The translations under genes were made by a program, and so were the position numbers. Of a DNA stretch of 64,000 nucleotides, positions 8,291-34,005 are shown piece by piece. The DNA lies in assembly GCA_964430945.1 (NCBI GenBank), contig CAYSHH010000004.1, positions 334 through 64,333 of the forward strand, written 5' to 3'. Below the pieces are notes generated by a model, which saw nothing but the letters and a program-made list of their open reading frames with translations, made no database searches and was not told where the DNA came from. Positions within the stretch are counted from its first letter, which is position 1; each line of letters begins with the position of its first letter. The DNA is from an uncultured Candidatus Saccharibacteria bacterium (GTDB taxonomy: Bacteria > Patescibacteriota > UBA1384 > JAMDBS01 > CAYSHH01).

Positions 8291-8383
8291 TGGCGGAGGC
8301 GAGAGGATTCGAACCTCTGTGGCGGCTTTTAGACCACCGACGGTTTAGCAAACCGTTCCCTTAAGCCACTCGGGCACGCCTCC
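8291..8383 (-). tRNA. tRNA-Ser (anticodon GCT)
   Basis: The reverse complement folds as GGAGGCG / D-arm / anticodon stem ACGGT-TTGCTAA-ACCGT / long variable arm / T-arm AGAGGTTCGAATCCTCT / CGCCTCC-G-CCA. It is a type II (long-arm) tRNA. Confidence 0.85.
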
Positions 8384-8389
8384 CTAATC

Positions 8390-8479
8390 TGGCGGAGAGA
8401 GAGGGATTCGAACCCCCGAGACCCGTGAGGGCCTAACGGTTTTCAAGACCGTCGCAATCGACCACTCTGCCATCTCTCC
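8390..8479 (-). tRNA. tRNA-Ser (anticodon TGA)
   Basis: The reverse complement reads GGAGAGATGGCAGAGTGG...ACGGT-CTTGAAA-ACCGT...GGGGGTTCGAATCCCTC-TCTCTCC-G-CCA. It has a long variable arm and an encoded CCA. Confidence 0.85.
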
Positions 8480-8490
8480 AAACTAAAGCG

Positions 8491-8519
8491 ATTATAACTT
8501 AAATTTCCTTGTAAATCAA
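8491..8519 (-). promoter_or_regulatory. Sigma70-like promoter for the minus-strand tRNA-Ser pair
   Basis: On the minus strand there is TTGATT, a 17-nt spacer, then TATAAT. This ends about 12 nt before the tRNA-Ser(TGA) 5' end. Confidence 0.45.
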
Positions 8520-8537
8520 CGATTTTACTGGTAAAAT
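8509..8537 (+). promoter_or_regulatory. Sigma70-like promoter (with TG-extended -10) for tRNA-Arg and tRNA-Ser(CGA)
   Basis: TTGTAA, a 17-nt spacer ending in TGg, then TAAAAT. The tRNA-Arg starts about 12 nt downstream. The -35 elements of the two divergent promoters overlap. Confidence 0.5.
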
Positions 8538-8549
8538 CTTATCTGTTAA

Positions 8550-8626
8550 GCGCTCGTAGCTCAGTTGGATAGAGCGTCAGATTGCGGATCTGAAGGTCGC
8601 AGGTTCAAATCCTGCCGGGCGCACCA
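8550..8626 (+). tRNA. tRNA-Arg (anticodon reads GCG)
   Basis: GCGCTCG-TA-GCTCAGTTGGATAGAGC-G-TCAGA-TTGCGGA-TCTGA-AGGTC-GCAGGTTCAAATCCTGC-CGGGCGC-A-CCA. The D-arm is typical of bacterial tRNA-Arg. Confidence 0.8.
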
Positions 8627-8661
8627 TATCTCATTAATTGTCTCAACATATAATTTATTCA

Positions 8662-8753
8662 GGAGAGGTCGCATAGTGGTCTAGTGCGCTTGTTTCGAAA
8701 ACAAGTGTCTTTTTTATTAAGGACCGTGGGTTCAAATCCCACCCTCTCCGCCA
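8662..8753 (+). tRNA. tRNA-Ser (anticodon CGA)
   Basis: GGAGAGG...CTTGT-TTCGAAA-ACAAG, a long variable arm, T-arm GTGGGTTCAAATCCCAC, then CCTCTCC-G-CCA. Confidence 0.85.
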
Positions 8754-18183: not shown

Positions 18184-18378
18184 AATTTATGACAATAGAT
18201 TACTATTAAAGAGGACAAGCCGTGGAATTACCATATAAATTGATAAATAATCTAGATGAAAAGATTAAAGCTAGATGGCAAAAACAGTTTGTCAATCCTG
18301 GGCGTGCCTCGATAGATGGTATATGGCGTCGAACTCAGTGTGCTGAAAATAAAATCTGGTTGGAAAAATAATAACGAT

Positions 18379-19387
18379 ATGCGTAGAAAAATGGTTCATT
18401 ATTTTGATACATTCGATGTGCAAAAGAGTAAAAATAAATATTCTTTTGTAATAACAGAGCCATTTCTTTGGGTGCACTATACTTTTCCTAAAAATGAAAT
18501 CAAATCATTCGATGCCTTAGTAACCAGATCGCTTAAAAGATGGGAACGTATTTCTGAAAATAAATATGTTCTCGGAGATCTTTCTTTCAGTATTGATATG
18601 GCCAAACCCCTAGATGATTTTATGACATTTCCTAAAAATTATTTGTATCGTTCTTACACATTATCGAAAAAAGATTACCAATTAAATGCCGATATTGAGC
18701 ATGAGCCATGGGATGTATTGAAGACAGGTATACGTCCTATTATGAAACGTGGTAATCCGCTAATGACAACTAAAATTAAGGACATACAAAAATATTTTCC
18801 AGCCCACTTTGAATTGGGGTGCGGGCCATCAATTGAGGCTGGCATTCCTCCACTTCATTTTCTGCATGAAGTATTTGGTATATCAGATCCTAAAACTGGT
18901 ATGTTTATTCTTGATCTAGCCAAAGACAAACTTATACCATTCATCTTAACTGATCCAAAATCATTTTATTTACAATCATCTTTGCCGTACCGAAAAGCCC
19001 TTATTTCTCCAGCTACTAAATTTTATCGCACCATGAGTATATTAAAAGATAAAAATCTCTTGATAGAGCCGATAATAACAAATAATTTTGATGGATTTTC
19101 TTCTCTAATGGGATTGAAAGAACAATATGTTAGACGTTATAAGGAAAGTGAAATCATGCCCAAGCTAGATATTGACCCAAGAGCAAAATCATTGATTGTG
19201 GTTGGAGCACATGCAGACAGAAGGCATACATAAGAAGCTGCACGTCTTGCTGGTTTAAAAGTAATATATATTGATCCAGAACAATTTGGTAAAAACCACC
19301 CATACCCTCTTGAATCACCACAGGATGAAGATATCGTCATGAATATGACTGCATATGAATTTGCGACTGCATTGAGAAAAATATTTT
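18379..19387 (+). pseudogene. SIR2-like (DHS-like NAD-binding fold) protein with an N-terminal extension, interrupted by an in-frame TAA at 19231-19233
   Basis: GCGPSIEAGIPP corresponds to the sirtuin GAGIS..GIP motif, and IITNNFDGFS to the TQNIDGL motif. SLIVVGAHAD...(TAA)...LKVIYIDPEQ corresponds to the sirtuin LVIGTSL...KLVIINLEPT motifs. The reading frame continues for 51 codons after the stop. A second short GTG ORF in another frame immediately upstream (18222-18371) suggests additional decay. Confidence 0.45.
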
Positions 19388-19558: not shown

Positions 19559-20209
19559 TTAGACTATGTAGGCAGAGGCAAAGTCCAACCCGAATTGCCA
19601 ATCGTTTTCTTCTTCATAGTCTAATTCAAATTCTCCCGTCTCTACTCTATGCACAAAATAGAGAATATTAGACTTATTACCGTCCACAATCAGTCTGGCC
19701 CCATTACAACCGATCCAAGTTTCGGGATCGTCTAATCGATCCTCATGAGCGATGAGGTGGATTCCCACCTCATATGGACCAAGAAAAATTTCATTTTGGC
19801 TGAGTTCTCTTTTCTTGTCCCTTTCCATATTTGTTTCCATACAATAACTAGAAGGGACAATAATTACCCGCTTATTTTTTTGTTTTTTCTGATAATGCTT
19901 ATACATGCGCATGAGATCGGTCGACGGGGAGATTATTTTTTGAGTTGTTGAAAATGTTTCGAGAATATTGAAAAAATCTGAGAACAGGATTCGATCAATA
20001 ATCGAAGCCACCCTGTTTGTTGCCTCTTCGTATGTTGCACCCAGCATCGACCAAACCGGGATGCAAGCTAATCCCTCAGCTTGTACTGGTTGGTTAGTTT
20101 TTATTATTTCCAGAGAAATTCCTCTCAGTTCTGGGAAATAACTTCCCAAAATATTGATTTGCTCGCCTAAGCTTTTCATTATAGCCATTTTTCTTACCTC
20201 TTTATGCAA
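19559..20209 (-). CDS. Hypothetical protein (216 aa), convergent with the SIR2-like gene
   Basis: Intact ORF with no family recognised by eye. Confidence 0.35.
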   Translation of the reverse strand: MHKEVRKMAIMKSLGEQINILGSYFPELRGISLEIIKTNQPVQAEGLACIPVWSMLGATYEEATNRVASIIDRILFSDFFNILETFSTTQKIISPSTDLMRMYKHYQKKQKNKRVIIVPSSYCMETNMERDKKRELSQNEIFLGPYEVGIHLIAHEDRLDDPETWIGCNGARLIVDGNKSNILYFVHRVETGEFELDYEEENDWQFGLDFASAYIV

Positions 20210-25692: not shown

Positions 25693-26316
25693 ATGAATAT
25701 CTATGAAATATTTCTAAAAATTATTTGGATTGTTGTAGCATTATCTTTGGTACCGATATGTACCTACACGATTTTCTATATAATAACTAGGCTTATAGCA
25801 CTCTTTACAATAATCGGTGGATCAATATCTGCAATTTTGGGATTTAATCATCAAAGTACAGACAAAAAAACAAAAAAAATTATTTTAAATATTGATAAAA
25901 TATTTTGGATAAGCGAGACTATATTGCTATTGGCAATCATAATATTTTATTTTTTCAAAGTGCAATACTCTTCTATCATGTTATATCTCGTAGGCGCGAT
26001 AATTGCTATTCACATAATTGTATCCATCATCGTTGGACTGATATACGGCCCAAAAATTAAAATACATTTTTTTAAAAACAACCAAAGGTGCAAGACATCA
26101 TTAAATAGTGACAAGATGGAAGAAGAACAAAAGAAAAAGGATGATGAGAAATATAAAACTGAGCTAGCATACGAAAAGAAATTCAAAAAAAGGTATGGAA
26201 AGATCGCTTGGGAATTGTACAACGATCTCAAAATACTTGGTTGTGTTTTTTATTTGATATATGGATTGTGGATGATGTTTAGTTACATGATTATTGATAT
26301 GATTGAAAGTGATTGA
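25693..26316 (+). CDS. Hypothetical membrane protein
   Basis: Four hydrophobic helices and a Lys/Glu-rich loop. Confidence 0.35.
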   Translation: MNIYEIFLKIIWIVVALSLVPICTYTIFYIITRLIALFTIIGGSISAILGFNHQSTDKKTKKIILNIDKIFWISETILLLAIIIFYFFKVQYSSIMLYLVGAIIAIHIIVSIIVGLIYGPKIKIHFFKNNQRCKTSLNSDKMEEEQKKKDDEKYKTELAYEKKFKKRYGKIAWELYNDLKILGCVFYLIYGLWMMFSYMIIDMIESD

Positions 26317-26404
26317 TAAATCACCAAATATTGTGCAAATCCCGAAACAAGAATCCATTTTAAAATAAAATAATCACTGAGCACATAAAAAATGTTAAAT
26401 AATC

Positions 26405-26436
26405 AAAAGTACACCCCGCGGGGTGTACTTTTTTGG
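26405..26436 (+). terminator. Strong Rho-independent terminator (perfect palindrome)
   Basis: aaaagtacaccccg|cggggtgtactttt is followed by tttgg. It marks the boundary before the AT-rich defense island. Confidence 0.6.
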
Positions 26437-26783
26437 GTTAGGAAATTAAGGAATCGGTTGAAAATATAACAGGTTGGGAGTATGATTTAGATATGTTATT
26501 TAGACAAAGTAAGAAGTCTGGTAAACCAGCTAAGATGATGAAATTAGAATCGATCAAAGAGCTTAGTTTTGATTTGGAAAAAGATATCCAAACTCTTACA
26601 GAAAAAACTCTGCCGAGATAAAAAATTGAATTAATCTGAAAAAATAAAAAAACAAGGACCTAAAATGTCAAAAGATCAGAAAGCCAAACAAAAACCAAAC
26701 TTGTCCACATAGTTAATAATTTATTATTTGATATAATATATTATATACATACCCGGAAGTCGTGAGTATTGTAGGAGGGAAAA

Positions 26784-27821
26784 ATGAAAAAATATACGGT
26801 TGTTGATTTGTTTTCAGGATCTGGAGGTTTGTCTCTTGGTTTTGAACAAGTCGGATTTAAAAATGTATTTTCAGTAGATTTTATGAAAGATTATTGTGAT
26901 ACTTATAGAAAAAATTTCCCTCATCATAAATTAATCCAAAAAGATATAAGTAAAATATCTGATAAAGAAATATTGAAATTATCTAAAAATAAAGAGATTA
27001 ATGTTGTTGTTGGAGGTCCTCCTTGTCAAGGATTTAGTATGGCTGGAAAAATAGGCAGAACTTTTGTTGATGATCCTAGAAACCATTTATTTAAGGAATT
27101 TGCAAGAATAGTTTCGCTAACTAAACCTAAAATTTTTGTTATGGAAAATGTAGCAAGATTATATACACATAACAATGGAAAAACTAGGAAAGAAATTATT
27201 GATAAATTTCATCAATTAGGTTATGAAGTTAAATGTAAAATTTTATGTTCTGCTGATTATGGTGTACCTCAAATTAGAAATAGAATTATTTTTATTGGTA
27301 ATAGATTAGGACTAAAAAATACTTTTCCTGAAAAAACATACAATAAGGATACACAAACCACAATCGGAAATAAAAAAATAAAAAAATGGAAATCAATCAA
27401 AGAAGCAATAGATGATTTACCCAAACTTAAATCAGGAGAAAGTTCAGATATTCCTAATCACGAAGCTATGTCACACACACAAGAGATGTTAAATAAGATG
27501 GATTTTATTAAAGATGGTGGAGATAGAAATCAAATTCCTATTAATCTTAGACCTAAAACAGGAGATATAAGAAAATATATTAAATATAATAGTTCAAAAC
27601 CTTCAATTTGTATCACAGGAGATATGAGAAAAGTCTTTCACTATAATCAAAATAGAGCTTTAACTGTTAGAGAATTGGCGAGAATTCAATCATTTCCAGA
27701 TTCCTTTGTCTTTAATGGAAATAAGATTTCACAACAACAACAAGTAGGAAATGCGGTTCCTCCGTTAATGGCTAAAGCCATTGCAGAAGGAATAAAAGAG
27801 ATGTTAAAACAAAATGAATAA
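26784..27821 (+). CDS. DNA (cytosine-5)-methyltransferase
   Basis: Motif I DLFSGSGG, motif IV GGPPCQGFS, motif VI ENV, motif VIII QIRNR and motif X GNAVPP are all present. There is a strong SD (AGGAGGG) 6 nt upstream. Confidence 0.9.
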   Translation: MKKYTVVDLFSGSGGLSLGFEQVGFKNVFSVDFMKDYCDTYRKNFPHHKLIQKDISKISDKEILKLSKNKEINVVVGGPPCQGFSMAGKIGRTFVDDPRNHLFKEFARIVSLTKPKIFVMENVARLYTHNNGKTRKEIIDKFHQLGYEVKCKILCSADYGVPQIRNRIIFIGNRLGLKNTFPEKTYNKDTQTTIGNKKIKKWKSIKEAIDDLPKLKSGESSDIPNHEAMSHTQEMLNKMDFIKDGGDRNQIPINLRPKTGDIRKYIKYNSSKPSICITGDMRKVFHYNQNRALTVRELARIQSFPDSFVFNGNKISQQQQVGNAVPPLMAKAIAEGIKEMLKQNE

Positions 27822-28821
27822 ATTACCTAAAATAAATTTTATTGGAAATAAAGAAAAAATTGTCGATTGGATTTGTGATAATATTCCAAAAAATGTTAAT
27901 TCCGTATTTGATGCTTTTTCAGGTGGTGCTTCAGTTAGTTTTGAAGCAAAAAAAAGAGGATTTAAAGTTTTAAGTAATGATATATTAGAAATCAATTATT
28001 TACTTTCAAAAGCACTGATTGAAAATAATAAAATCACTCTTAATGAAAAAGATATCAAAACTATTTTTTCAGGTAATCCAGTAAAGGGATTTATGTATAA
28101 AAATTATTCGGAAGTTTATTTCTTCTCAGAAGAGTGTATGGAACTAGATTTGTATCGAAAAAATATTGAAAAATTAGATTCAGATTATAAAAAAGCTTTA
28201 GCTTTCTCTTTGATTAGAAGGTCAATGATTAGAAAAATGCCCTATTCGAGATTTACTCTTCCGTGGGATAAGATTAAACAATTAAGAGATGAAGAATATA
28301 GTTATAAAAAATATAAACGAAGAAGAGCCTATCACAATCAAAGTTTTAAAGAACATTTTTTAGATAATCTTAACGAGTACAATAAAGCAATTTTTGATAA
28401 TAAGAAAGATAATAAAGCGTTTAATTCAGACATTTTTCAATTAATACCGAAGATTAATGCTGATTTAATTTATCTCGATCCTCCATACACTGGAACAATG
28501 AATAATTATTTTGGTTTTTATGGTCTTATAGATGAATATTTGAAACAGAAAAAATTAAAGCCTTTTGAAAATGATTTTATTGATAAAAATATAGCATTGG
28601 ATTTATTTGATAATTTATTCTCTAAGTTAGGAAAATACAAATATTGGTTTTTGAGTTATAATAATTCTTCATATCCAACTAAAGAACAATTACTTAGTTT
28701 ATTGAAGAAATATTCCAAAGATGTTAAGGTAATAGAACGAAAACATAATTATCAAGTAACAGGAAAAACAAAGAAGACTAAAAATAAAGAATATTTATTT
28801 ATTGTTAAAACAAAGAAGTAA
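27814..28821 (+). CDS. Dam-family (D12-class, alpha-type) N6-adenine DNA methyltransferase
   Basis: Motif I region NFIGNKEKI...DAFSGGASV near the N-terminus and motif IV LDPPY at about residue 215. It overlaps the m5C methyltransferase by 8 nt. Confidence 0.8.
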   Translation: MNKLPKINFIGNKEKIVDWICDNIPKNVNSVFDAFSGGASVSFEAKKRGFKVLSNDILEINYLLSKALIENNKITLNEKDIKTIFSGNPVKGFMYKNYSEVYFFSEECMELDLYRKNIEKLDSDYKKALAFSLIRRSMIRKMPYSRFTLPWDKIKQLRDEEYSYKKYKRRRAYHNQSFKEHFLDNLNEYNKAIFDNKKDNKAFNSDIFQLIPKINADLIYLDPPYTGTMNNYFGFYGLIDEYLKQKKLKPFENDFIDKNIALDLFDNLFSKLGKYKYWFLSYNNSSYPTKEQLLSLLKKYSKDVKVIERKHNYQVTGKTKKTKNKEYLFIVKTKK

Positions 28822-28822
28822 A

Positions 28823-29902
28823 ATGACAAAATCAAAAAAACAAATATATGAGAATTATTGGAGTATAACTCTTGCATATACTGATTTAAATTCTAAAAAG
28901 TTTATTGAGACTTTAAGGGCAATTGTTAATTTTATTGATTCTCACAATACTTTAAAATTTGATTCTAGAATGTATCAAGATCTACAAGAAGAAGTAGGAG
29001 AAGTAAATGGTTTGTCTGGAACTTCATTAAGAAAAAGTATTAATCAATTTGTTAAGTTGGGTTTTATAAATTATAAATTACATTCATATCACAAAGATTG
29101 TAAAATATTTCTAGAAGCTAGAGCTTGTAGAAAAAGAAGAACGATATTTTCCAAAATTGTTTACGAAAATTCTTCATTTAATAGAGATATAACTAAAGAT
29201 TCTCAAGAAAGAGAAGTAAACTTTTTATTGAAGACTCTAGAAGAAGTTGGGCAATTAAGGAAAGAAGATATTGCTGCATTAATGACTCAAAAAATTAGTG
29301 AATATCCAAAGGGATATCTAACCGAAGAAGAATTGGAAGATGCAAAACAAAACGCAAATGAAATAAAATTTTATGAAAGAAAATATAATCAAGTAAGTCA
29401 TCTTAGAACAGTCTTAAGTAAACTTGATGATTTAGTTATGGTATCTGGAACAATATATTTTGAAGAAGATGCAAAAGTTGCATTTGGAGAAGATTTTAAA
29501 GCTCAACTTAGAGTAAGGGATAATTATTTACATAGACTATACAAAAATCAGCTTAAAGAAGAATCTGAAGAAAGAGAAGGAGAAATTATGTGTATGGTAG
29601 AATTGTTAGATTATCCTTCATTAGTTGCTAGTCATATTAAACCATTCATAAAATCAAATGATGAAGAAGCATATGACCCTGAAAATGGTTTATTACTCAG
29701 CAGAAATATGGATGTTTTATTTGACCAAGGTTATATTTCTTTTACAGATGAAGGAAAAATTATTCTATCCAAAGAGCTTTCAGAAGATTTAAAAGAGTTT
29801 TTAAAAGATTATGGTTTAAAGAAAATATACTTAACAAAAAAGAGATTGAAATTTTTAAAATTCCATAGGCAAAGAGTGTTTAAAAAAAATAATTTTACAT
29901 AA
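28823..29902 (+). CDS. HNH-type endonuclease, probable restriction endonuclease of the RM module
   Basis: The C-terminal region CMVELLDYPSLVASHIKPF...ENGLLLSRNMDVLFDQGYISF matches the HNH_2-type (PF13391-like) motif H-I-x-P...N-G-L...H-x-x-F-D. The N-terminal roughly 250 aa are unassigned and could be the DNA-recognition part. The start is placed at the ATG immediately after the methyltransferase stop. Confidence 0.6.
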   Translation: MTKSKKQIYENYWSITLAYTDLNSKKFIETLRAIVNFIDSHNTLKFDSRMYQDLQEEVGEVNGLSGTSLRKSINQFVKLGFINYKLHSYHKDCKIFLEARACRKRRTIFSKIVYENSSFNRDITKDSQEREVNFLLKTLEEVGQLRKEDIAALMTQKISEYPKGYLTEEELEDAKQNANEIKFYERKYNQVSHLRTVLSKLDDLVMVSGTIYFEEDAKVAFGEDFKAQLRVRDNYLHRLYKNQLKEESEEREGEIMCMVELLDYPSLVASHIKPFIKSNDEEAYDPENGLLLSRNMDVLFDQGYISFTDEGKIILSKELSEDLKEFLKDYGLKKIYLTKKRLKFLKFHRQRVFKKNNFT

Positions 29903-30149
29903 AGATAAAGCACAAGAAATTTTTACTTTATCTGCATATCACTATTTTGGTAGAAAACAGACAGAGGAAAAAATCATGGGTAAAAGATCGTATTCTAAGT
30001 ATGCTTGAAGACACAATGTATGTACGCCTTAAAACAACTCTAAACAATAAAATTGAACCAGATGACCAACATTGGCAAAAAAAAGGAAAATCGTATTATA
30101 AATTTTTAAAAAATATTATGAACAAATCCCATTATTAATATAGGAAAAA

Positions 30150-30230
30150 ATGGAAATTGATAAAATAGTTTATCGTCTTTATGGTCTAAATTCAAATGAA
30201 TTTATTGTAATAGAAAATTCAATCAAATAA
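30150..30230 (+). pseudogene. 26-codon relic resembling the conserved C-terminal tail of Type IIG/PglX/Eco57I-like N6-adenine methyltransferase-restriction proteins
   Basis: MEIDKIVYRLYGLNSNEFIVIENSIK resembles the ...IDxxVYxLYGLTxEEIxIVE* tail seen at the C-terminus of many large gamma-class m6A methyltransferase/restriction fusion proteins. This is remembered from known families, not searched. An in-frame stop lies immediately upstream. Confidence 0.3.
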
Positions 30231-30235
30231 TTATT

Positions 30236-30991
30236 ATGTCAGATTATTACAACCCTCAAAGAACAAGAAATTTGTATGATCCGAACTCTAGCAATCCATT
30301 TAAATTAAGTAGATCTAAACTAGAGCTATTTTTAAATTGTCCTCGTTGTTTTTATTTAGATAGAAGATTAGGAGTCAGACAACCTCCTGGATATCCTTTC
30401 GCATTGAATAGCGCAGTTGATCACTTGCTAAAAAAAGAATTTGATCTATATAGAAAAAATGGAGATACGCATCCGCTTATTGCTAAATACAAAGTAGATG
30501 CAAAGCCAGTAAATCACAAAATGCTCGATATTTGGCGAGAGAACTTTAAAGGTGTTCAATATCTGCATGAGCCGACTAATCTTTTAATTACAGGTGCAAT
30601 AGATGACCTATGGATTAATTCTAAGGGCGAATATATTGTCGTTGATTACAAGGCTACAAGCAAGGACGAAGATATTACTTCTCTAAATAAATCATGGCAT
30701 GACGGATATAAACGCCAAATGGAAATATATCAGTGGCTATTAAGAAAAAACGGTCTAAAAGTGTCTGATATTGGGTATTTTGTATATTGTAACGGTTGCA
30801 CAGATCGAGACATTTTTGATTGTAAATTAGATTTTAATTTAACTCTGATTGCACATAAAGGCAACGACTCATGCGTCGAAAAAGCAGTCATCGATGCTCA
30901 CAAATGTCTAAACAGAAACCAAATCCCTGAAGCATCACCTGATTGTGATTACTGTAGGTATGTCAGTGCAAGAAAGAAAATAAGTGCATAA
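30236..30991 (+). CDS. PD-(D/E)XK nuclease of the RecB/Cas4-like (Fe-S cluster, DUF83-type) family
   Basis: N-terminal Cys pair (LNCPRCFYL), motif II/III GAIDDL...IVVDYKAT, the QxxxY motif (RQMEIYQWL) and C-terminal Cys (CNGC ... CDYCRY). This is the Cas4-like four-Cys arrangement. Confidence 0.65.
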   Translation: MSDYYNPQRTRNLYDPNSSNPFKLSRSKLELFLNCPRCFYLDRRLGVRQPPGYPFALNSAVDHLLKKEFDLYRKNGDTHPLIAKYKVDAKPVNHKMLDIWRENFKGVQYLHEPTNLLITGAIDDLWINSKGEYIVVDYKATSKDEDITSLNKSWHDGYKRQMEIYQWLLRKNGLKVSDIGYFVYCNGCTDRDIFDCKLDFNLTLIAHKGNDSCVEKAVIDAHKCLNRNQIPEASPDCDYCRYVSARKKISA

Positions 30992-31009
30992 TAGCTTTTG
31001 GAAAGTATA

Positions 31010-32677
31010 ATGTATATAGAAAAAATTAAAATTTATAATTTTAAATGCTTCGAGGAATTTTCACTTAACTTAAAAGATGGTTTAAATATTCTTGTGGGCG
31101 ATAATGAGGCGGGTAAATCTACTATTTTAGAGGCAATACACCTGGCTCTGACTGGTTTATTGAATGGAAAATATTTAAAATTAGAGTTAACTCCAGATTT
31201 ATTTAACAATCAAACAAAAAGAAAATACATTAAGAGTTTACATAAAACTATTCTGCCAGAAGCAATTCCCGTACCCCCAGAAATAGTAATCGAATTATAT
31301 TTTAATGGATTTAAGCCAGAAGATGATTCATTAAAAGCATTATTTGAAGGTACAGGCAATACAGATAAAACAAAGTCTTGTGGTATTAAATTTAAAATTA
31401 ATTTTAATGAAACATATAGAGAATATTATGAAGAGCTAGTGAAGCAAGATGATGCAATACAATCAATACCAACAGAGTATTATGAATTTTCTTGGGCTTC
31501 TTTTGCTAGAGATGAAAAAGTAACTCCTTTTAATATCCCAATTAAATCTGCTCCTATAGATTCTTCAACCATAAGATATAAAAGCGGATCCGATGTTTAT
31601 ATATCTAGAATAGTTAGAGATCACTTAGAAAATGAAGACAAAATTAAGGTCGATCATGCTTATCGTAGGTTGAAGGATAAATTTATAGAAGATAGTTCAA
31701 TTAAAAACGTTAATGAAGTCATAAAGAAAGCTATAGACATATCTAGTAAAAAGGTGGAAATTTCCTTAGATTTATCGGTGAATGCCTGGGAAACTAGCCT
31801 TACAACTTATCTCGATGATGTGCCTTTTCATTATATTGGAAAGGGTGAACAATGTGTTGTTAAAACCAAATTAGCATTGAGTCATAAAAAATCACAAGAA
31901 GCTAATGTTCTATTAATTGAGGAATTGGAAAATCATTTATCATACACAAAACTTAACAGTCTTATTGGTGATATAAAGAAAAATAGTAAAAAGCAGATAA
32001 TAATTTCAACGCATAGTAGTTTTGTTGCCAATAAATTGGGTTTAGATCACATAATAATGATTAACGTAAAAGCTGATAGAAGCACTAGAGCAATAGCAAT
32101 GCTTAAAGATTTGTCAAATGACACCCAATTGTTTTTTGAAAAGTTATCTGGATACGATACACTCCGATTGATACTATGCAAAAAAGCAATACTTGTCGAA
32201 GGTGATTCTGATGAGTTAATTATTCAGCGTGCATATTTGGATAAATTCACTCGATTGCCAATTGAAAATCAAATAGATGTTATTTCTGTAGGAACAGCAT
32301 TTCTAAGATTTTTAGAAATAGCCGATAAATTAGACAAAAATACTTGTGTAGTAACAGACAATGATGGAGACTATAAAACTAAGATTGAAAATAAATATAG
32401 CAAATATAAAGATAGCGAGTGTATTAAAATTTGTTACGATAAAAATGATGACTTAAATACACTGGAACCTCAACTTGTTGAAGCAAATAGTGATAATCTC
32501 GATAATTTAAGAAAAGTATTAGATATTTTAGAAAAAAACTATCCAGGAAAGGACGATATTATTAAATACATGATAAATAATAAAACTAAGAGTGCTTTAA
32601 AAATATTCCAGTCCGAAGAATGTATTAACTATCCAGAATATATTTTAAATGCAATTAAGGGTGGCGATGATTCTTAA
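31010..32677 (+). CDS. gajA: OLD-family ATP-dependent endonuclease (ABC-type ATPase + Toprim), GajA-like
   Basis: N-terminus MYIEKIKIYNFKCFEEF...LNILVGDNEAGKSTILEAI (Walker A), Toprim glutamate in ILVEGDSDELI and the DxD motif in VVTDNDGD. SD ggaaag lies 5 nt upstream. A UvrD-like gene follows immediately. Confidence 0.75.
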   Translation: MYIEKIKIYNFKCFEEFSLNLKDGLNILVGDNEAGKSTILEAIHLALTGLLNGKYLKLELTPDLFNNQTKRKYIKSLHKTILPEAIPVPPEIVIELYFNGFKPEDDSLKALFEGTGNTDKTKSCGIKFKINFNETYREYYEELVKQDDAIQSIPTEYYEFSWASFARDEKVTPFNIPIKSAPIDSSTIRYKSGSDVYISRIVRDHLENEDKIKVDHAYRRLKDKFIEDSSIKNVNEVIKKAIDISSKKVEISLDLSVNAWETSLTTYLDDVPFHYIGKGEQCVVKTKLALSHKKSQEANVLLIEELENHLSYTKLNSLIGDIKKNSKKQIIISTHSSFVANKLGLDHIIMINVKADRSTRAIAMLKDLSNDTQLFFEKLSGYDTLRLILCKKAILVEGDSDELIIQRAYLDKFTRLPIENQIDVISVGTAFLRFLEIADKLDKNTCVVTDNDGDYKTKIENKYSKYKDSECIKICYDKNDDLNTLEPQLVEANSDNLDNLRKVLDILEKNYPGKDDIIKYMINNKTKSALKIFQSEECINYPEYILNAIKGGDDS

Positions 32678-33797
32678 GAATAAGTTAATCATTGCAGCTG
32701 CGGGATCGGGAAAAACTACCCATATCGTTGAGGATGCTCTCCAACAAGATAATAAAGTTCTTATAACAACTTTTACCGAAGCGAATAGAGATGAAATAGA
32801 AAGAAAAATATTAAAATATAAAAAATATATTCCTAAGAATATAACAATTCAAACATGGTTTTCGGTTTTATTGCAACATGGAGTAAGACCCTATCAAGAC
32901 AAAATGAACGACGCACTATACGATAAGAAAGTAGGATTTTATTTATGTGAAGGAAAATCAGGGCTAAAAGCTAAGAATAAGTCGGGTATACCAATTTACT
33001 GGGGAGAAAAAGATTTTTTTCATTTCTATTTTACTAAAGATTTAAAAATATATTCAGATAAGATATCTAAATTTGTTTATAACTGTAATAAAAAAACCAA
33101 TAATGAAGTTGTAAATAGGCTTACAAGAATATATCAAAATATTTATATAGATGAGATTCAAGACTTAGCTGGGTGGGATTTAGATTTAATAAAATTATTA
33201 TTAAAATCATCATCTCAGGTAGTTATGGTTGGAGATCCTAGACAAGCAACTTATACGACTAATGACTCCTCTCGATTTAAAAAGTATCGAGGTAGAATTG
33301 ATAATTTTATAATTAATGAATGTTCTAAAAATATCTGTGATATTGACTTAAAAACATTAAATAAATCTCATAGAAATTGTGAAAATATTTGCAAATTTTC
33401 TTCAAAATTATATCCCGAATATCAAGAGTGTGTTTCGTGTGGTTGTGATACTTGTAAAAAAGATAATCAGGGACATGAAGGAATATTTTTAGTTAGCCCG
33501 GATGACGTTTCAGATTATTGTAGTAAATACGAAAATATTAAAAAATTACGTTATAGTAAAGCTAAAAATACGGAAATTAATTTTGGAGCATCTAAAGGAT
33601 TGGGATTTGATAGAATAATTATTTTTCCAACTCAAAATATCCTAAAATATTTAAAATCCGGAAATATATCAGACATAGAGTCAATAAAAGCAAAATTTTA
33701 CGTTGCCTTGACGAGAGCAAGACATAGTGTTGCTATTGTTTGTAATTATAAAAAAGAAGATCAATATATTGAAGGAATTAATAAGTATTTAGAATAA
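32667..33797 (+). CDS. gajB: UvrD/Rep-like SF1 helicase, compact; GajB-like
   Basis: Motif I IIAAAGSGKTT, motif II IDEIQD, motif III VGDPRQA and motif VI VALTRARHSV. It overlaps gajA by 11 nt and is about 377 aa from this start. Confidence 0.7.
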   Translation: MILKNKLIIAAAGSGKTTHIVEDALQQDNKVLITTFTEANRDEIERKILKYKKYIPKNITIQTWFSVLLQHGVRPYQDKMNDALYDKKVGFYLCEGKSGLKAKNKSGIPIYWGEKDFFHFYFTKDLKIYSDKISKFVYNCNKKTNNEVVNRLTRIYQNIYIDEIQDLAGWDLDLIKLLLKSSSQVVMVGDPRQATYTTNDSSRFKKYRGRIDNFIINECSKNICDIDLKTLNKSHRNCENICKFSSKLYPEYQECVSCGCDTCKKDNQGHEGIFLVSPDDVSDYCSKYENIKKLRYSKAKNTEINFGASKGLGFDRIIIFPTQNILKYLKSGNISDIESIKAKFYVALTRARHSVAIVCNYKKEDQYIEGINKYLE

Positions 33798-34005
33798 TAT
33801 TTATACTGGATAGTCTCCCTTCCACCTAGTCCTCTAAGTGTAAGAACAGGTCTAAAATTATTAACATAAAAAAATAACCATAATTGTAAAAACTATGAGC
33901 AAGACAAATTTACTTAACTATAAAAAAGTATAACGTAGTACATAATTTATATTATATATAGTGACTTTGGCAAAAATGTGCTAATGCAATAATTAAAGTT
34001 ATTTT

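What the first reader, a model, noticed from the sequence alone, without database searches (positions are those of the whole stretch)
30236..33797. Gabija-like pair (OLD-family GajA + compact UvrD-like GajB) directly preceded by a Cas4/RecB-like Fe-S nuclease: a possible undescribed three-gene variant
Three co-oriented genes have minimal gaps: the nuclease ends at 30991, gajA starts at 31010, and gajB overlaps gajA by 11 nt. GajA shows an N-terminal Walker A (GDNEAGKST) and C-terminal Toprim E/DxD motifs. GajB has SF1 motifs I, II, III and VI but is only about 377 aa, well short of the typical roughly 490-aa GajB. Canonical Gabija is two genes. Here a four-Cys PD-(D/E)XK nuclease (QxxxY motif, N-terminal CPRC and C-terminal CDYC) sits immediately upstream, apparently in the same transcription unit. 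This could be an accessory or sensor nuclease for a Gabija variant, or a separate single-gene defense or repair nuclease. Either way the architecture is not one I recognise as described.
Basis: partly seen in the sequence, partly recalled or inferred. Interest (0 to 1): 0.78.

Follow-up and report, generated by a model that had tools for sequence, protein, structure and literature searches.

The report
Ordinary Gabija beside an unrelated nuclease
The region holds a normal two-gene Gabija anti-phage system that sits by chance next to a widespread stand-alone Cas4-like nuclease of Patescibacteria, so it is not a new three-gene defence system.

Summary
The three ORFs, their spacing and all quoted motifs are real. 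GajA and GajB match PADLOC Gabija profiles full-length (GajA E=6e-206; GajB E=1e-125 on a 369-position profile). The short GajB is therefore a subfamily that is already modelled, not an oddity.

The three-gene idea fails both synteny tests:
- 0 of 86 loci carrying a relative of the nuclease (58-95% identity) encode GajA or GajB.
- 0 of 80 loci carrying the compact GajB encode the nuclease, while 79 of 80 keep GajA directly upstream.

The nuclease belongs to a very large, highly conserved family of stand-alone ~250-aa Cas4/RecB-like proteins, mostly from Patescibacteria, with no conserved neighbour.

In its closest relatives (92-95% identity), DNA similarity to the window covers only two pieces: the nuclease gene and a ~47-nt element just after gajB. 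The stretch between them holds Gabija here, SIR2-HerA in one relative, and a LexA-like repressor gene plus a candidate metallo-beta-lactamase defence cassette (PDC-M48B) in another. Gabija therefore looks like a swappable cassette beside a conserved gene.

Verdict: a known Gabija subtype plus a known kind of solo Cas4-like nuclease. The only mildly new point is the hot-spot pattern around the nuclease.

The parts
30236..30991 (+). Stand-alone Cas4/RecB-like PD-(D/E)XK nuclease, 251 aa, with six conserved Cys. It is a conserved gene of a large, mainly Patescibacteria family and is not part of Gabija.
   Evidence: PF12705 at 47.2 bits. Weak Cas4 hits. More than 8000 homologues, the best 120 at 70% identity or more. 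AF2 model with pLDDT 89, whose best fold matches are AdnAB, Cas4, MGME1, lambda exonuclease and Exo5. No conserved neighbour.
31010..32677 (+). gajA: OLD-family ABC ATPase plus TOPRIM nuclease, 555 aa.
   Evidence: PADLOC GajA PDLC00102, E=5.8e-206, full length. Pfam AAA_15 plus OLD-like_TOPRIM. Catalytic residues are invariant in 25 relatives.
32667..33797 (+). gajB: compact SF1 UvrD-like helicase/NTPase. It is 376 aa from the ATG at 32667 (11-nt overlap with gajA), or 382 aa from 32649.
   Evidence: PADLOC GajB PDLC00148, E=9.6e-126. Homologues are 367-444 aa. The AF2 model's best PDB fold hit is GajB 8tk1_F, E=3.2e-13. GajA lies directly upstream in 79 of 80 related loci.
33817..33864 (.). 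Conserved ~47-nt intergenic element. It forms the right-hand boundary of the variable slot that holds Gabija here.
   Evidence: 88-90% identical to L167 11585-11634 and L171 4628-4675, directly after unrelated cassettes. It occurs once in the window, with 0 expected by chance.
30151..30232 (+). Remnant of the C-terminal tail of a type IIG / Eco57I-like restriction-methylase gene (MEIDKIVYRLYGLNSNEFIVIENSIK*). It ends 3 nt before the nuclease ATG.
   Evidence: Sequence read. tblastx matches the C-terminal ends of large upstream genes in L029, L045 and L046 (E=0.003-0.01). Intact Eco57I-family genes sit in this position in L175 and L003.
26784..29902 (+). Neighbouring type II restriction-modification cassette: C5-cytosine methyltransferase 26784-27821, D12 N6-adenine methyltransferase 27814-28821, HNH endonuclease 28802-29902. 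This is context and not part of Gabija.
   Evidence: PADLOC MTase_II 5.9e-112 and 2e-151, REase_II 7.7e-106. Pfam DNA_methylase, MethyltransfD12, HNH_2. GC is 24-29% here against about 34% in the flanks.

Best explanation
The interval contains two functionally independent units that are neighbours only because both lie in a defence island.

Unit 1, gajA plus gajB, is a complete two-gene Gabija system of a compact subfamily. The following mechanism is inferred by homology to the Bacillus cereus system. GajA (ABC ATPase plus TOPRIM) is a DNA endonuclease held inactive by normal nucleotide levels. GajB (UvrD-like NTPase) binds GajA in a hetero-oligomer, senses DNA ends and hydrolyses purine nucleotides, which releases GajA to cut invading DNA.

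Unit 2 is a solo Cas4/RecB-like nuclease with conserved Cys that probably hold a metal or iron-sulfur cluster. It most likely trims DNA ends as an exonuclease in repair, recombination or degradation of linear DNA, and it acts on its own.

In the lineage nearest the window, this nuclease gene is a fixed landmark in a defence island, and in some relatives it lies next to conjugative-element genes. Restriction-modification cassettes turn over on its 5' side and other defence cassettes on its 3' side. Gabija is simply the cassette occupying the 3' slot in this genome.
For: Shown:
- Gabija identity: full-length PADLOC hits at 6e-206 and 1e-125.
- Pair conservation: GajA lies directly upstream of GajB in 79 of 80 related metagenome loci.
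- No link to the nuclease, reverse direction: 0 of those 80 loci carry a nuclease relative, and 44 have at least 2.5 kb upstream of gajB, enough room for gajA plus the nuclease. Their upstream neighbours are heterogeneous and are often type I R-M subunits.
- No link, forward direction: 0 of 86 nuclease loci carry GajA or GajB at E<=1e-5.
- No conserved partner: the 143 immediate neighbours in about 77 of the species-representative loci fall into 126 Pfam families, and none occurs more than 3 times.
- The nuclease is highly conserved. More than 8000 homologues were found, the best 120 at 70-100% identity, and the named ones come from Magasanikbacteria, Taylorbacteria, Nealsonbacteria, Buchananbacteria and Parcubacteria. 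There are 302 clusters at 50% identity with E<=1e-30.
- Cassette swap: against the 92-95% identical relatives L167/L007 and L171, nucleotide similarity to the window is limited to 30231-30961 and 33814-33864. The slot between them holds Gabija in the window. In L171 it holds SIR2 (5e-51) plus HerA (5e-172). In L167 it holds a reverse-strand LexA-like gene, PDC-M48B (1e-81) and two more genes.
- In L167 the gene after the nuclease is on the opposite strand, so the nuclease needs no co-transcribed partner.
- Eleven of the 12 distinct loci sampled among the closest relatives (nuclease 72% identical or more) have R-M-type methyltransferase or restriction genes just upstream. In the twelfth, L171, the contig ends 981 nt upstream. 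Downstream genes are varied defence or candidate defence genes: PDC-S06, LmuB-like, HerA-like, TIR, DndB.
- Nuclease fold: pLDDT 89, with best matches to AdnAB nuclease domains, Cas4, MGME1, lambda exonuclease, Exo5 and AddB.

From the literature:
- Solo Cas4 is over-represented in CPR genomes, mostly inherited vertically, sometimes next to R-M, and of unknown function (PMC5704561).
- Gabija mechanism (PMC8136825, PMC10781630, PMC10822852, bioRxiv 10.1101/2023.05.02.539174).
Against: - The 18-nt gap with no predicted terminator leaves co-transcription of the nuclease with gajAB possible.
- In three relatives the nuclease stop overlaps the start of the downstream defence gene: L001 by 8 nt, L006 and L171 by 4 nt. 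That could hint at operon membership rather than mere packing.
- The window's GajA and GajB are very distant from the only experimentally studied Gabija. A GajA profile does not reach B. cereus GajA at E<=1e-3. The GajB profile matches B. cereus GajB no better than Rep, UvrD or PcrA. The mechanism is therefore extrapolated.
- The biochemical activity and metal cluster of the nuclease were not tested.
- Loci at 72% identity or more were sampled from the top of one hit list and are not a random sample.
Confidence: 0.85

Rival explanations
1. Three-gene Gabija variant. The Cas4-like nuclease would be a dedicated accessory or sensor subunit of this compact Gabija, co-transcribed and co-evolving with gajA and gajB.
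For: The three genes are co-oriented with an 18-nt gap and an 11-nt overlap. No terminator-like site lies between them.
Against: - 0 of 80 compact-Gabija loci have the nuclease, and 44 of them have room for it.
- 0 of 86 nuclease loci have GajA or GajB.
- The 92-95% identical nuclease genes are followed by SIR2-HerA or by a reverse-strand LexA-like gene instead.
- Sequence similarity between these loci breaks about 30 nt before the nuclease stop.
- No paper in the library links Gabija with Cas4 as one system.
Confidence: 0.03
2. Generic helper. The nuclease would be a shared DNA-end-processing enzyme, a functional stand-in for RecBCD/AddAB. It would co-operate with whatever restriction or defence cassette lies beside it, for example by degrading cleaved invader DNA or protecting self DNA ends. 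On this reading its island position is functional, though not specific to Gabija.
For: - Eleven of the 12 closest-relative loci have R-M genes directly upstream, and most have defence genes downstream.
- Start/stop overlaps with downstream defence genes occur in L001, L006 and L171.
- The fold is of the RecB/AddB/AdnAB/Cas4 type.
- In Pseudomonas, Gabija targeting depends on whether RecBCD is present on DNA ends (PMC12407980).
- Solo Cas4 next to R-M in small-genome archaea (the DPANN group) was noted earlier as a possible defence link (PMC5704561).
Against: - Among 80 species-representative loci, only 12 have R-M-like genes within 6 kb: 3 of 3 at 71% identity or more, and 9 of 77 below that.
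- Most neighbours are housekeeping genes such as YceG, alanyl-tRNA synthetase, UDG and UPRTase.
- The partner systems (R-M, SIR2-HerA, Gabija) work without such a nuclease in other phyla (established knowledge).
- Whether these genomes lack RecBCD/AddAB was not checked.
Confidence: 0.1
3. The pair is not Gabija but another OLD-family system, such as class 1 OLD, PARIS AriA/AriB or retron/Septu PtuA, that merely resembles it.
For: - A profile of the GajA relatives hits PtuA (1e-12), class 1 OLD 6p74 (5e-11) and AriA (3e-7) in the PDB, but not B. cereus GajA at E<=1e-3.
- There is a weak NCBIfam hit to MADS3, 50.5 bits against a cut-off of 420.
Against: - The GajA PADLOC profile scores 683 bits, against 74 for AriA and 68 for Old.
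- The protein has a C-terminal TOPRIM domain, which the AriA and PtuA matches do not cover (AriA profile matched to residue 340, PtuA to 357).
- It is fused by overlap to a UvrD-like helicase, and that pairing is kept in 79 of 80 relatives. This pairing is the defining architecture of class 2 OLD / Gabija.
- The best PDB fold hit for the helicase is GajB.
Confidence: 0.02

Closest known systems
Gabija (GajA/GajB) of Bacillus cereus VD045; class 2 OLD nuclease with tandem UvrD-like helicase
   Same: - Two overlapping, co-oriented genes.
- GajA has an N-terminal ABC-type ATPase and a C-terminal TOPRIM domain with the acidic catalytic residues.
- GajB is an SF1 UvrD-like protein with motifs I, Ia, II, III and VI.
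- PADLOC files both proteins under Gabija.
   Different: - Sequence is very distant. Single-sequence and profile searches do not single out the B. cereus proteins.
- GajB is about 115 aa shorter. B. cereus GajB carries a 103-aa C-terminal accessory subdomain at residues 314-416 (PMC10681800). The model here has no room for it and instead has five invariant Cys: C225, C248, C264, C266, C269.
- Anti-phage activity and the 4:4 assembly are untested for this subfamily.
Solo Cas4 / PDDEXK_1 nucleases of Candidate Phyla Radiation bacteria (Hudaiberdiev et al. 2017, PMC5704561)
   Same: - A stand-alone Cas4-like PD-(D/E)XK protein.
- Found in small-genome Patescibacteria with no CRISPR nearby.
- Strongly conserved, and sometimes adjacent to restriction-modification genes.
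   Different: - This family scores best with PF12705, not the Cas4 family PF01930.
- It is below the TIGR00372 cas4 cut-off, 33 bits against 65.
- Its Cys pattern is CxxC ... C ... C ... CxxC, rather than one N-terminal Cys plus a C-terminal CxxCx5C (the Cas4 pattern is from general knowledge).
Iron-sulfur RecB-family nuclease domains (AddB, AdnA/AdnB, Cas4, Exo5) and related exonucleases (MGME1, lambda exonuclease)
   Same: Best structural matches of the AF2 model. It shares the D...(D/E)xK...QxxxY catalytic motifs, with Cys at both ends of the domain.
   Different: TM-scores are only 0.35-0.51 and sequence identity 10-20%. It is a single-domain protein with no attached helicase. The cluster and the direction of nuclease action are untested.
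Defence hot spots bounded by conserved genes (for example the P2/P4 satellite hot spots, SXT ICE hotspot 5, and core defence hot spots of E. coli and Pseudomonas); comparison from general knowledge
   Same: Conserved flanks with unrelated defence cassettes between them in close relatives. Here the flanks are the nuclease gene and a 47-nt element, and the cassettes are Gabija, SIR2-HerA and a PDC-M48B-containing cassette.
   Different: - Seen here in Patescibacteria. In some relatives it lies next to conjugation or relaxase-type genes: Replic_Relax, TraG-like, T4SS pilin.
- The window itself shows no such backbone genes.
- Only three cassette types share the exact 47-nt boundary so far.

Membership tests
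Gabija | GajA is an OLD-family protein with an N-terminal ABC-type ATPase and a C-terminal TOPRIM nuclease domain | tested here: met
   PADLOC GajA PDLC00102, E=5.8e-206, over residues 1-550. Pfam AAA_15 and OLD-like_TOPRIM are above their cut-offs. Walker A, the signature/Walker B region and the TOPRIM E397, D401, E402, D450, D452 are invariant in 25 relatives.
Gabija | GajB is an SF1 UvrD-like helicase/NTPase | tested here: met
   PADLOC GajB PDLC00148, E=9.6e-126. Pfam UvrD-helicase, with UvrD_C exactly at its cut-off of 25.6 bits. Motif residues are invariant. Top fold hit is 8tk1_F GajB at 3.2e-13, followed by UvrD, PcrA and Rep.
Gabija | The two genes are adjacent, co-oriented and conserved as a pair | tested here: met
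   The genes overlap by 11 nt. GajA is directly upstream of GajB in 79 of 80 related loci; the exception is cut by the contig end.
Gabija | Detectable sequence relationship to the experimentally validated B. cereus GajA/GajB beyond the generic superfamily | tested here: inconclusive
   The GajA profile does not hit B. cereus GajA at E<=1e-3. The GajB profile hits 8sm3_B only at the P-loop (1.5e-7), no better than Rep or UvrD. The fold search puts GajB first, but only marginally.
Gabija | Anti-phage protection, nucleotide-regulated DNA cleavage and the GajA4:GajB4 assembly | not testable with these tools
   Needs cloning with phage challenge, biochemistry, or prediction of the complex.
   0 of 80 compact-Gabija loci and 0 of 86 nuclease loci show the combination.
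Cas4 (CRISPR-associated, TIGR00372 / PF01930) | Scores above the curated family cut-off | tested here: not met
   TIGR00372 scores 33.3 bits against a cut-off of 65. Pfam reports only PF12705 for this protein. PADLOC Cas4 profiles reach only E=6e-11 to 1e-4.
Cas4 (CRISPR-associated, TIGR00372 / PF01930) | Genomic association with cas1/cas2 or a CRISPR array | tested here: not met
   No CRISPR-like tandem array in the 64-kb window and no CRISPR RNA family. No cas genes were seen among the neighbours of relatives.
PD-(D/E)XK nuclease superfamily, RecB/Cas4-like branch (PF12705) | Catalytic D ... (D/E)xK and QxxxY motifs and the characteristic fold | tested here: met
   PF12705 at 47.2 bits against a cut-off of 22. 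D123/D124, D137-Y-K139 and Q161...Y165 are invariant. Fold matches to AdnAB, Cas4, Exo5, lambda exonuclease and AddB.
PD-(D/E)XK nuclease superfamily, RecB/Cas4-like branch (PF12705) | A Cys-ligated iron-sulfur cluster | not testable with these tools
   Six invariant Cys are present: C35, C38, C185, C224, C237, C240. Which of them bind a cluster, and which metal, needs spectroscopy or a solved structure.

The most novel reading that the evidence does not exclude
The solo Cas4-like nuclease gene is the fixed anchor of a dedicated site where defence cassettes are exchanged, on a family of Patescibacteria islands or conjugative elements. The last ~30 nt of the nuclease gene and a conserved 47-nt element would act as the recombination boundaries. 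The nuclease itself would serve as a shared DNA-end processor, a RecBCD substitute, for whichever system is installed. That would include Gabija, whose choice of targets depends on RecBCD in Pseudomonas.
Probability: 0.12. Interest if true: 0.6.

Novelty: new member of a known kind. Interest (0 to 1): 0.27.

Why it matters
As proposed, a new three-gene Gabija would have mattered, because Gabija is among the commonest anti-phage systems and no accessory nuclease is known for it. The evidence removes that claim.

What remains is useful but modest:
- It documents a compact Gabija subtype in a Patescibacteria-type genome. This subtype has a GajB without the C-terminal accessory subdomain and with a conserved Cys cluster, and it has not been studied experimentally.
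- A very strongly conserved solo Cas4-like nuclease sits in the middle of fast-changing defence islands in one lineage of these small-genome bacteria. That gives a practical landmark for finding defence cassettes in metagenomes.
- It raises a testable question about what replaces RecBCD-type end processing in these organisms.

Tried and rejected
- Single-sequence search of the nuclease against PDB sequences gave only chance hits with E>0.7.
- Single-sequence searches of GajB and GajA did not find the B. cereus Gabija proteins. Profile searches did not single them out either.
- The 47-nt element has no match in the viral contig collection. It is absent from the other 85 loci held at that point. 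It matches no Rfam family. As RNA it folds no better than shuffled sequence, z=0.66. A structured RNA or a terminator is therefore unsupported, and its role as a recombination site is only an inference.
- The promoter scan found fewer sigma-70-like sites than the shuffles (43 against 49), so it says nothing about operon structure.
- The nuclease has no match in 50,697 phage records and one 45% match in plasmids, so a phage origin was rejected.
- I considered that the nuclease could be the restriction enzyme of the upstream R-M. I rejected this because that cassette already has an HNH endonuclease, and because a protein at least 72% identical sits beside R-M systems of types I, II, IIG and III.
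- A literature search for Gabija with Cas4 found no paper that appears to describe such a system. A search for Gabija in Patescibacteria found nothing relevant.
- Backbone genes of the mobile element seen in relatives (DUF3768, Replic_Relax, TraG-like) were sought in the window by tblastx and not found.

Full report
**1. The observation**

- The PD-(D/E)XK nuclease lies at 30236-30991 (251 aa).
- gajA runs from the ATG at 31010 to 32677 (555 aa).
- gajB ends at 33797. That start also fits the consensus N-terminus of homologues.

No ORF of 60 aa or more lies on the opposite strand. All quoted motifs are present in the translations and are invariant in alignments of relatives. The nuclease family in fact conserves six Cys (C35, C38, C185, C224, C237, C240), not four.

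**2. The pair is Gabija, and the short GajB is normal for its subfamily**

- GajA matches PADLOC GajA profile PDLC00102 end to end (E=5.8e-206).
- GajB matches PDLC00148, a profile of only 369 positions, end to end (E=9.6e-126).
- The best hits to other OLD-type systems are about 180 orders of magnitude weaker: AriA 5.5e-21, Old 1.9e-19, PtuA 3.3e-19.
- Pfam gives AAA_15 plus OLD-like_TOPRIM for GajA, and UvrD-helicase plus UvrD_C for GajB.
- A search of 5.8 billion proteins found 3523 relatives of GajB at E<=1e-10. All 120 best are 367-444 aa, and the named ones include Pacebacteria, Nitrospirae, Desulfobacterium, Cloacimonetes and Epulopiscium.
- In 80 metagenome loci fetched with a GajB alignment, 79 have a GajA relative immediately upstream. 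The one exception starts at the contig edge.

This is a widespread, tightly conserved two-gene module.

It is, however, far from the experimentally studied Bacillus cereus system. Single sequences do not find the B. cereus proteins in the PDB. A GajA profile finds PtuA, class 1 OLD and AriA but not B. cereus GajA at E<=1e-3. The GajB profile matches B. cereus GajB only at the P-loop, no better than Rep or UvrD.

An AF2 model of GajB (pLDDT 88) has B. cereus GajB (8tk1_F) as its best PDB match at E=3.2e-13, just ahead of UvrD and PcrA. B. cereus GajB has a 103-residue C-terminal accessory subdomain at residues 314-416 (PMC10681800). The compact protein has no room for that subdomain. In that region it carries five invariant Cys instead. 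The loss of the subdomain is my inference from lengths and the secondary-structure map, not from a superposition.

**3. The nuclease is not part of Gabija**

I ran two independent synteny tests.

*Forward.* The nuclease has more than 8000 homologues. The best 120 are 70-100% identical, and those that carry names are labelled Magasanikbacteria, Taylorbacteria, Nealsonbacteria, Buchananbacteria, Parcubacteria or Patescibacteria. Scanning one genome per GTDB species returned 329 relatives, of which 80 loci were kept at 58-95% identity. They are mostly Patescibacteria, with a few records labelled Vicinamibacteria, Woeseiaceae, Spirochaetes or Chloroflexota. With six loci from direct look-ups, that makes 86 loci. 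None has a GajA or GajB match at E<=1e-5. The only weaker hits are P-loop or helicase-motif matches to unrelated ATPases and UvrD. The 143 immediate neighbours in about 77 of the species-representative loci fall into 126 Pfam families, and none is present more than three times. Most are housekeeping: YceG, alanyl-tRNA synthetase, UDG, UPRTase, T2SS ATPase.

*Reverse.* None of the 80 compact-Gabija loci contains a relative of the nuclease at E<=1e-3, although 44 have at least 2.5 kb upstream of gajB. The genes flanking gajAB are heterogeneous. The commonest are type I R-M subunits: HsdS upstream in 7 loci, and HsdR-like genes nearby in 6 (5 downstream, 1 upstream). This compact Gabija is therefore often embedded in type I R-M operons.

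**4. Why the two are neighbours here**

The nuclease's closest relatives give the answer.

Against L007/L167 (95% aa, 91.5% nt) and L171 (92% aa, 86% nt), nucleotide similarity to the window covers only two stretches. One is 30231-30961, which is the nuclease gene without its last ~30 nt. The other is a short element at 33814-33864, beginning 17-20 nt after the gajB stop.

What lies between these two conserved pieces differs:

| Locus | Content of the slot |
|---|---|
| Window | gajA + gajB |
| L171 | SIR2 (PADLOC 5e-51) + HerA (5e-172) |
| L167 | reverse-strand LexA-like repressor, metallo-beta-lactamase protein PDC-M48B (1e-81), a 231-aa protein, DUF2188 |

In L167 and L171 the element is followed by two DUF3768 genes, a Replic_Relax gene and a TraG/TrwB-like coupling-protein gene. 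This suggests a conjugative or mobilisable element. The window lacks these genes.

I sampled further distinct loci whose nuclease is 72-80% identical. Each shows variable cassettes on both sides of the nuclease:
- L001: D12 methyltransferases and an OLD/AriA-like ATPase | nuclease | 886-aa ATPase
- L003: two Eco57I-type methyltransferases and UvrD | nuclease | LmuB-like ATPase
- L006: two C5-methyltransferases and BpuJI-like | nuclease | HerA-like
- L008: | nuclease | PDC-S06 (2e-200)
- L172: type I R-M with a reverse transcriptase | nuclease | unknown 332-aa protein
- L173: type III-like R-M and a reverse transcriptase | nuclease | the same 332-aa protein
- L174: D12 methyltransferase | nuclease | DksA-like, LepA
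- L175: SNF2 helicase and a type IIG enzyme | nuclease | MBL cassette, then T4SS genes
- L177: type III-like R-M and a reverse transcriptase | nuclease | TIR protein
- L179: Eco57I-type methyltransferase | nuclease | DndB

Eleven of these twelve loci have R-M-type genes just upstream. In the twelfth, L171, the contig ends 981 nt upstream. By contrast, among the 80 species representatives only 12 have R-M-like genes within 6 kb: 3 of 3 at 71% identity or more, and 9 of 77 below that.

The window also keeps a scar of earlier turnover. At 30151-30232, ending 3 nt before the nuclease ATG, is an orphan 26-codon ORF (MEIDKIVYRLYGLNSNEFIVIENSIK*). It resembles the C-terminal tails of the large type IIG-like genes that sit upstream of the nuclease in L029, L045 and L046 (E=0.003-0.01). 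The whole block 26.3-34 kb is 24-32% GC against about 34% around it.

Taken together, the nuclease gene is a conserved landmark in a defence island. Gabija is one of several cassettes that can occupy the slot on its 3' side.

**5. What the nuclease is**

- It passes the Pfam PDDEXK_1 threshold (47.2 bits against 22).
- It fails the curated Cas4 threshold (TIGR00372, 33.3 against 65).
- The AF2 model (pLDDT 89) best matches the nuclease domains of AdnAB, then Cas4 (4r5q, 8d3l, 4ic1), MGME1, lambda exonuclease, Exo5 and AddB. TM-scores are modest at 0.35-0.51.
- The family has 302 clusters at 50% identity with E<=1e-30, almost all single-domain proteins of about 250 aa.
- It is absent from the phage collection and nearly absent from plasmids.
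- No CRISPR array or cas gene is nearby.

This matches the 'solo Cas4' class that Hudaiberdiev et al. described as over-represented in CPR genomes, mostly vertically inherited, sometimes adjacent to R-M genes, and of unknown function (PMC5704561).

My best inference is a Cys-ligated, metal- or iron-sulfur-containing exonuclease that processes DNA ends. Its activity, polarity and cofactor are untested.

**6. How the Gabija part most likely works (inferred by homology)**

The mechanism comes from the papers found, taken from their abstracts; I read part of only one of them (PMC10681800):
- GajA and GajB form a 4:4 complex (PMC10781630, PMC10822852).
- GajB senses the DNA ends made by GajA and hydrolyses (d)ATP/(d)GTP, which reinforces GajA activity (bioRxiv 10.1101/2023.05.02.539174).
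- In Pseudomonas, Gabija targets linear DNA that RecBCD cannot load on (PMC12407980).

Whether the compact subfamily assembles and senses in the same way, without the accessory subdomain, is unknown.

**7. Rivals**

- The three-gene variant is contradicted by both synteny tests.
- A 'generic helper' role for the nuclease is not excluded. In its favour are the island position in the nearest lineage, start/stop overlaps with downstream defence genes in three relatives, the RecB-like fold and the RecBCD-Gabija link. Against it are the housekeeping contexts of most family members and the known self-sufficiency of the neighbouring systems elsewhere.
- Reassigning the pair to another OLD-type system is contradicted by the PADLOC score gap, the TOPRIM domain and the conserved helicase partner.

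**8. Verdict**

- Observation: confirmed.
- Interpretation: partly supported.
- Novelty: a new member of known kinds, namely a PADLOC-modelled compact Gabija subtype and a solo Cas4-like nuclease.

The by-product worth recording is the cassette-exchange pattern around a highly conserved nuclease gene in Patescibacteria defence islands.

Noticed in passing
window 33817-33864; L167 11585-11634; L171 4628-4675: A ~47-nt sequence (CCCTTCCRCCTAGTCCTCTAAGTRTAAGAACAG..CTAAAATTAT) is conserved directly after three unrelated defence cassettes. It shows no RNA-family match and no significant fold. It may be a recombination boundary or part of a promoter region for the next gene.
   Followed up: partly
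window 30151-30232: An orphan 26-codon ORF resembles the C-terminal tail of type IIG / Eco57I-like restriction-methylases and ends 3 nt before the nuclease start. It is probably a scar of a replaced upstream cassette. The 63-aa ORF at 29947-30138 may be another fragment.
   Followed up: partly
window 32649-33797 (GajB residues 225-269) and alignment A3: The compact GajB subfamily has five invariant cysteines (C225, C248, C264, C266, C269) where the B. cereus protein carries its C-terminal accessory subdomain. This may be a small zinc-binding insert.
   Followed up: no
L087-L166 (e.g. L111 3229-4365, L118 7191-10394): Compact Gabija pairs are repeatedly embedded in type I restriction-modification operons. 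An HsdS-like gene lies upstream in 7 loci, and HsdR-like genes lie nearby in 6 (5 downstream, 1 upstream).
   Followed up: partly
L172 1769-3343; L173 5657-6541; L177 5571-6995: Reverse-transcriptase genes (RVT_1) lie upstream of the conserved nuclease in three separate islands, directly adjacent in L177. They sit inside or beside type I or type III R-M operons and may be defence-associated reverse transcriptases.
   Followed up: no
L167 11773-16689; L171 4812-8786; L001 9635-12765; L175 10177-14768: The nuclease-centred islands of close relatives are followed by DUF3768 genes, a Replic_Relax gene, TraG/TrwB-like and VirB4-like ATPases, and a T4SS pilin. This suggests conjugative elements in Patescibacteria. 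The window has none of these.
   Followed up: partly
window 26300-34000: The block carrying the R-M cassette, the nuclease and Gabija is 24-32% GC against about 34% in the flanks. A strong 12-bp-stem hairpin at 26405-26432 (AAAAGTACACCCCGCGGGGTGTACTTTT) lies at its left edge.
   Followed up: no
L117 840-2492; L140 1674-3332; L115 4377-6002: Three GajA relatives contain one or two in-frame stop codons under code 11. They may be pseudogenes, assembly errors or a different genetic code.
   Followed up: no
window 8291-8753: A cluster of four tRNA genes (Ser-GCT, Ser-TGA, Arg-GCG, Ser-CGA) on both strands coincides with a local GC peak of 42%.
   Followed up: no
window 18316-19233 (+) and 19559-20209 (-): Two sizeable ORFs (305 and 216 aa) have no Pfam match at E<=0.001.
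   Followed up: no
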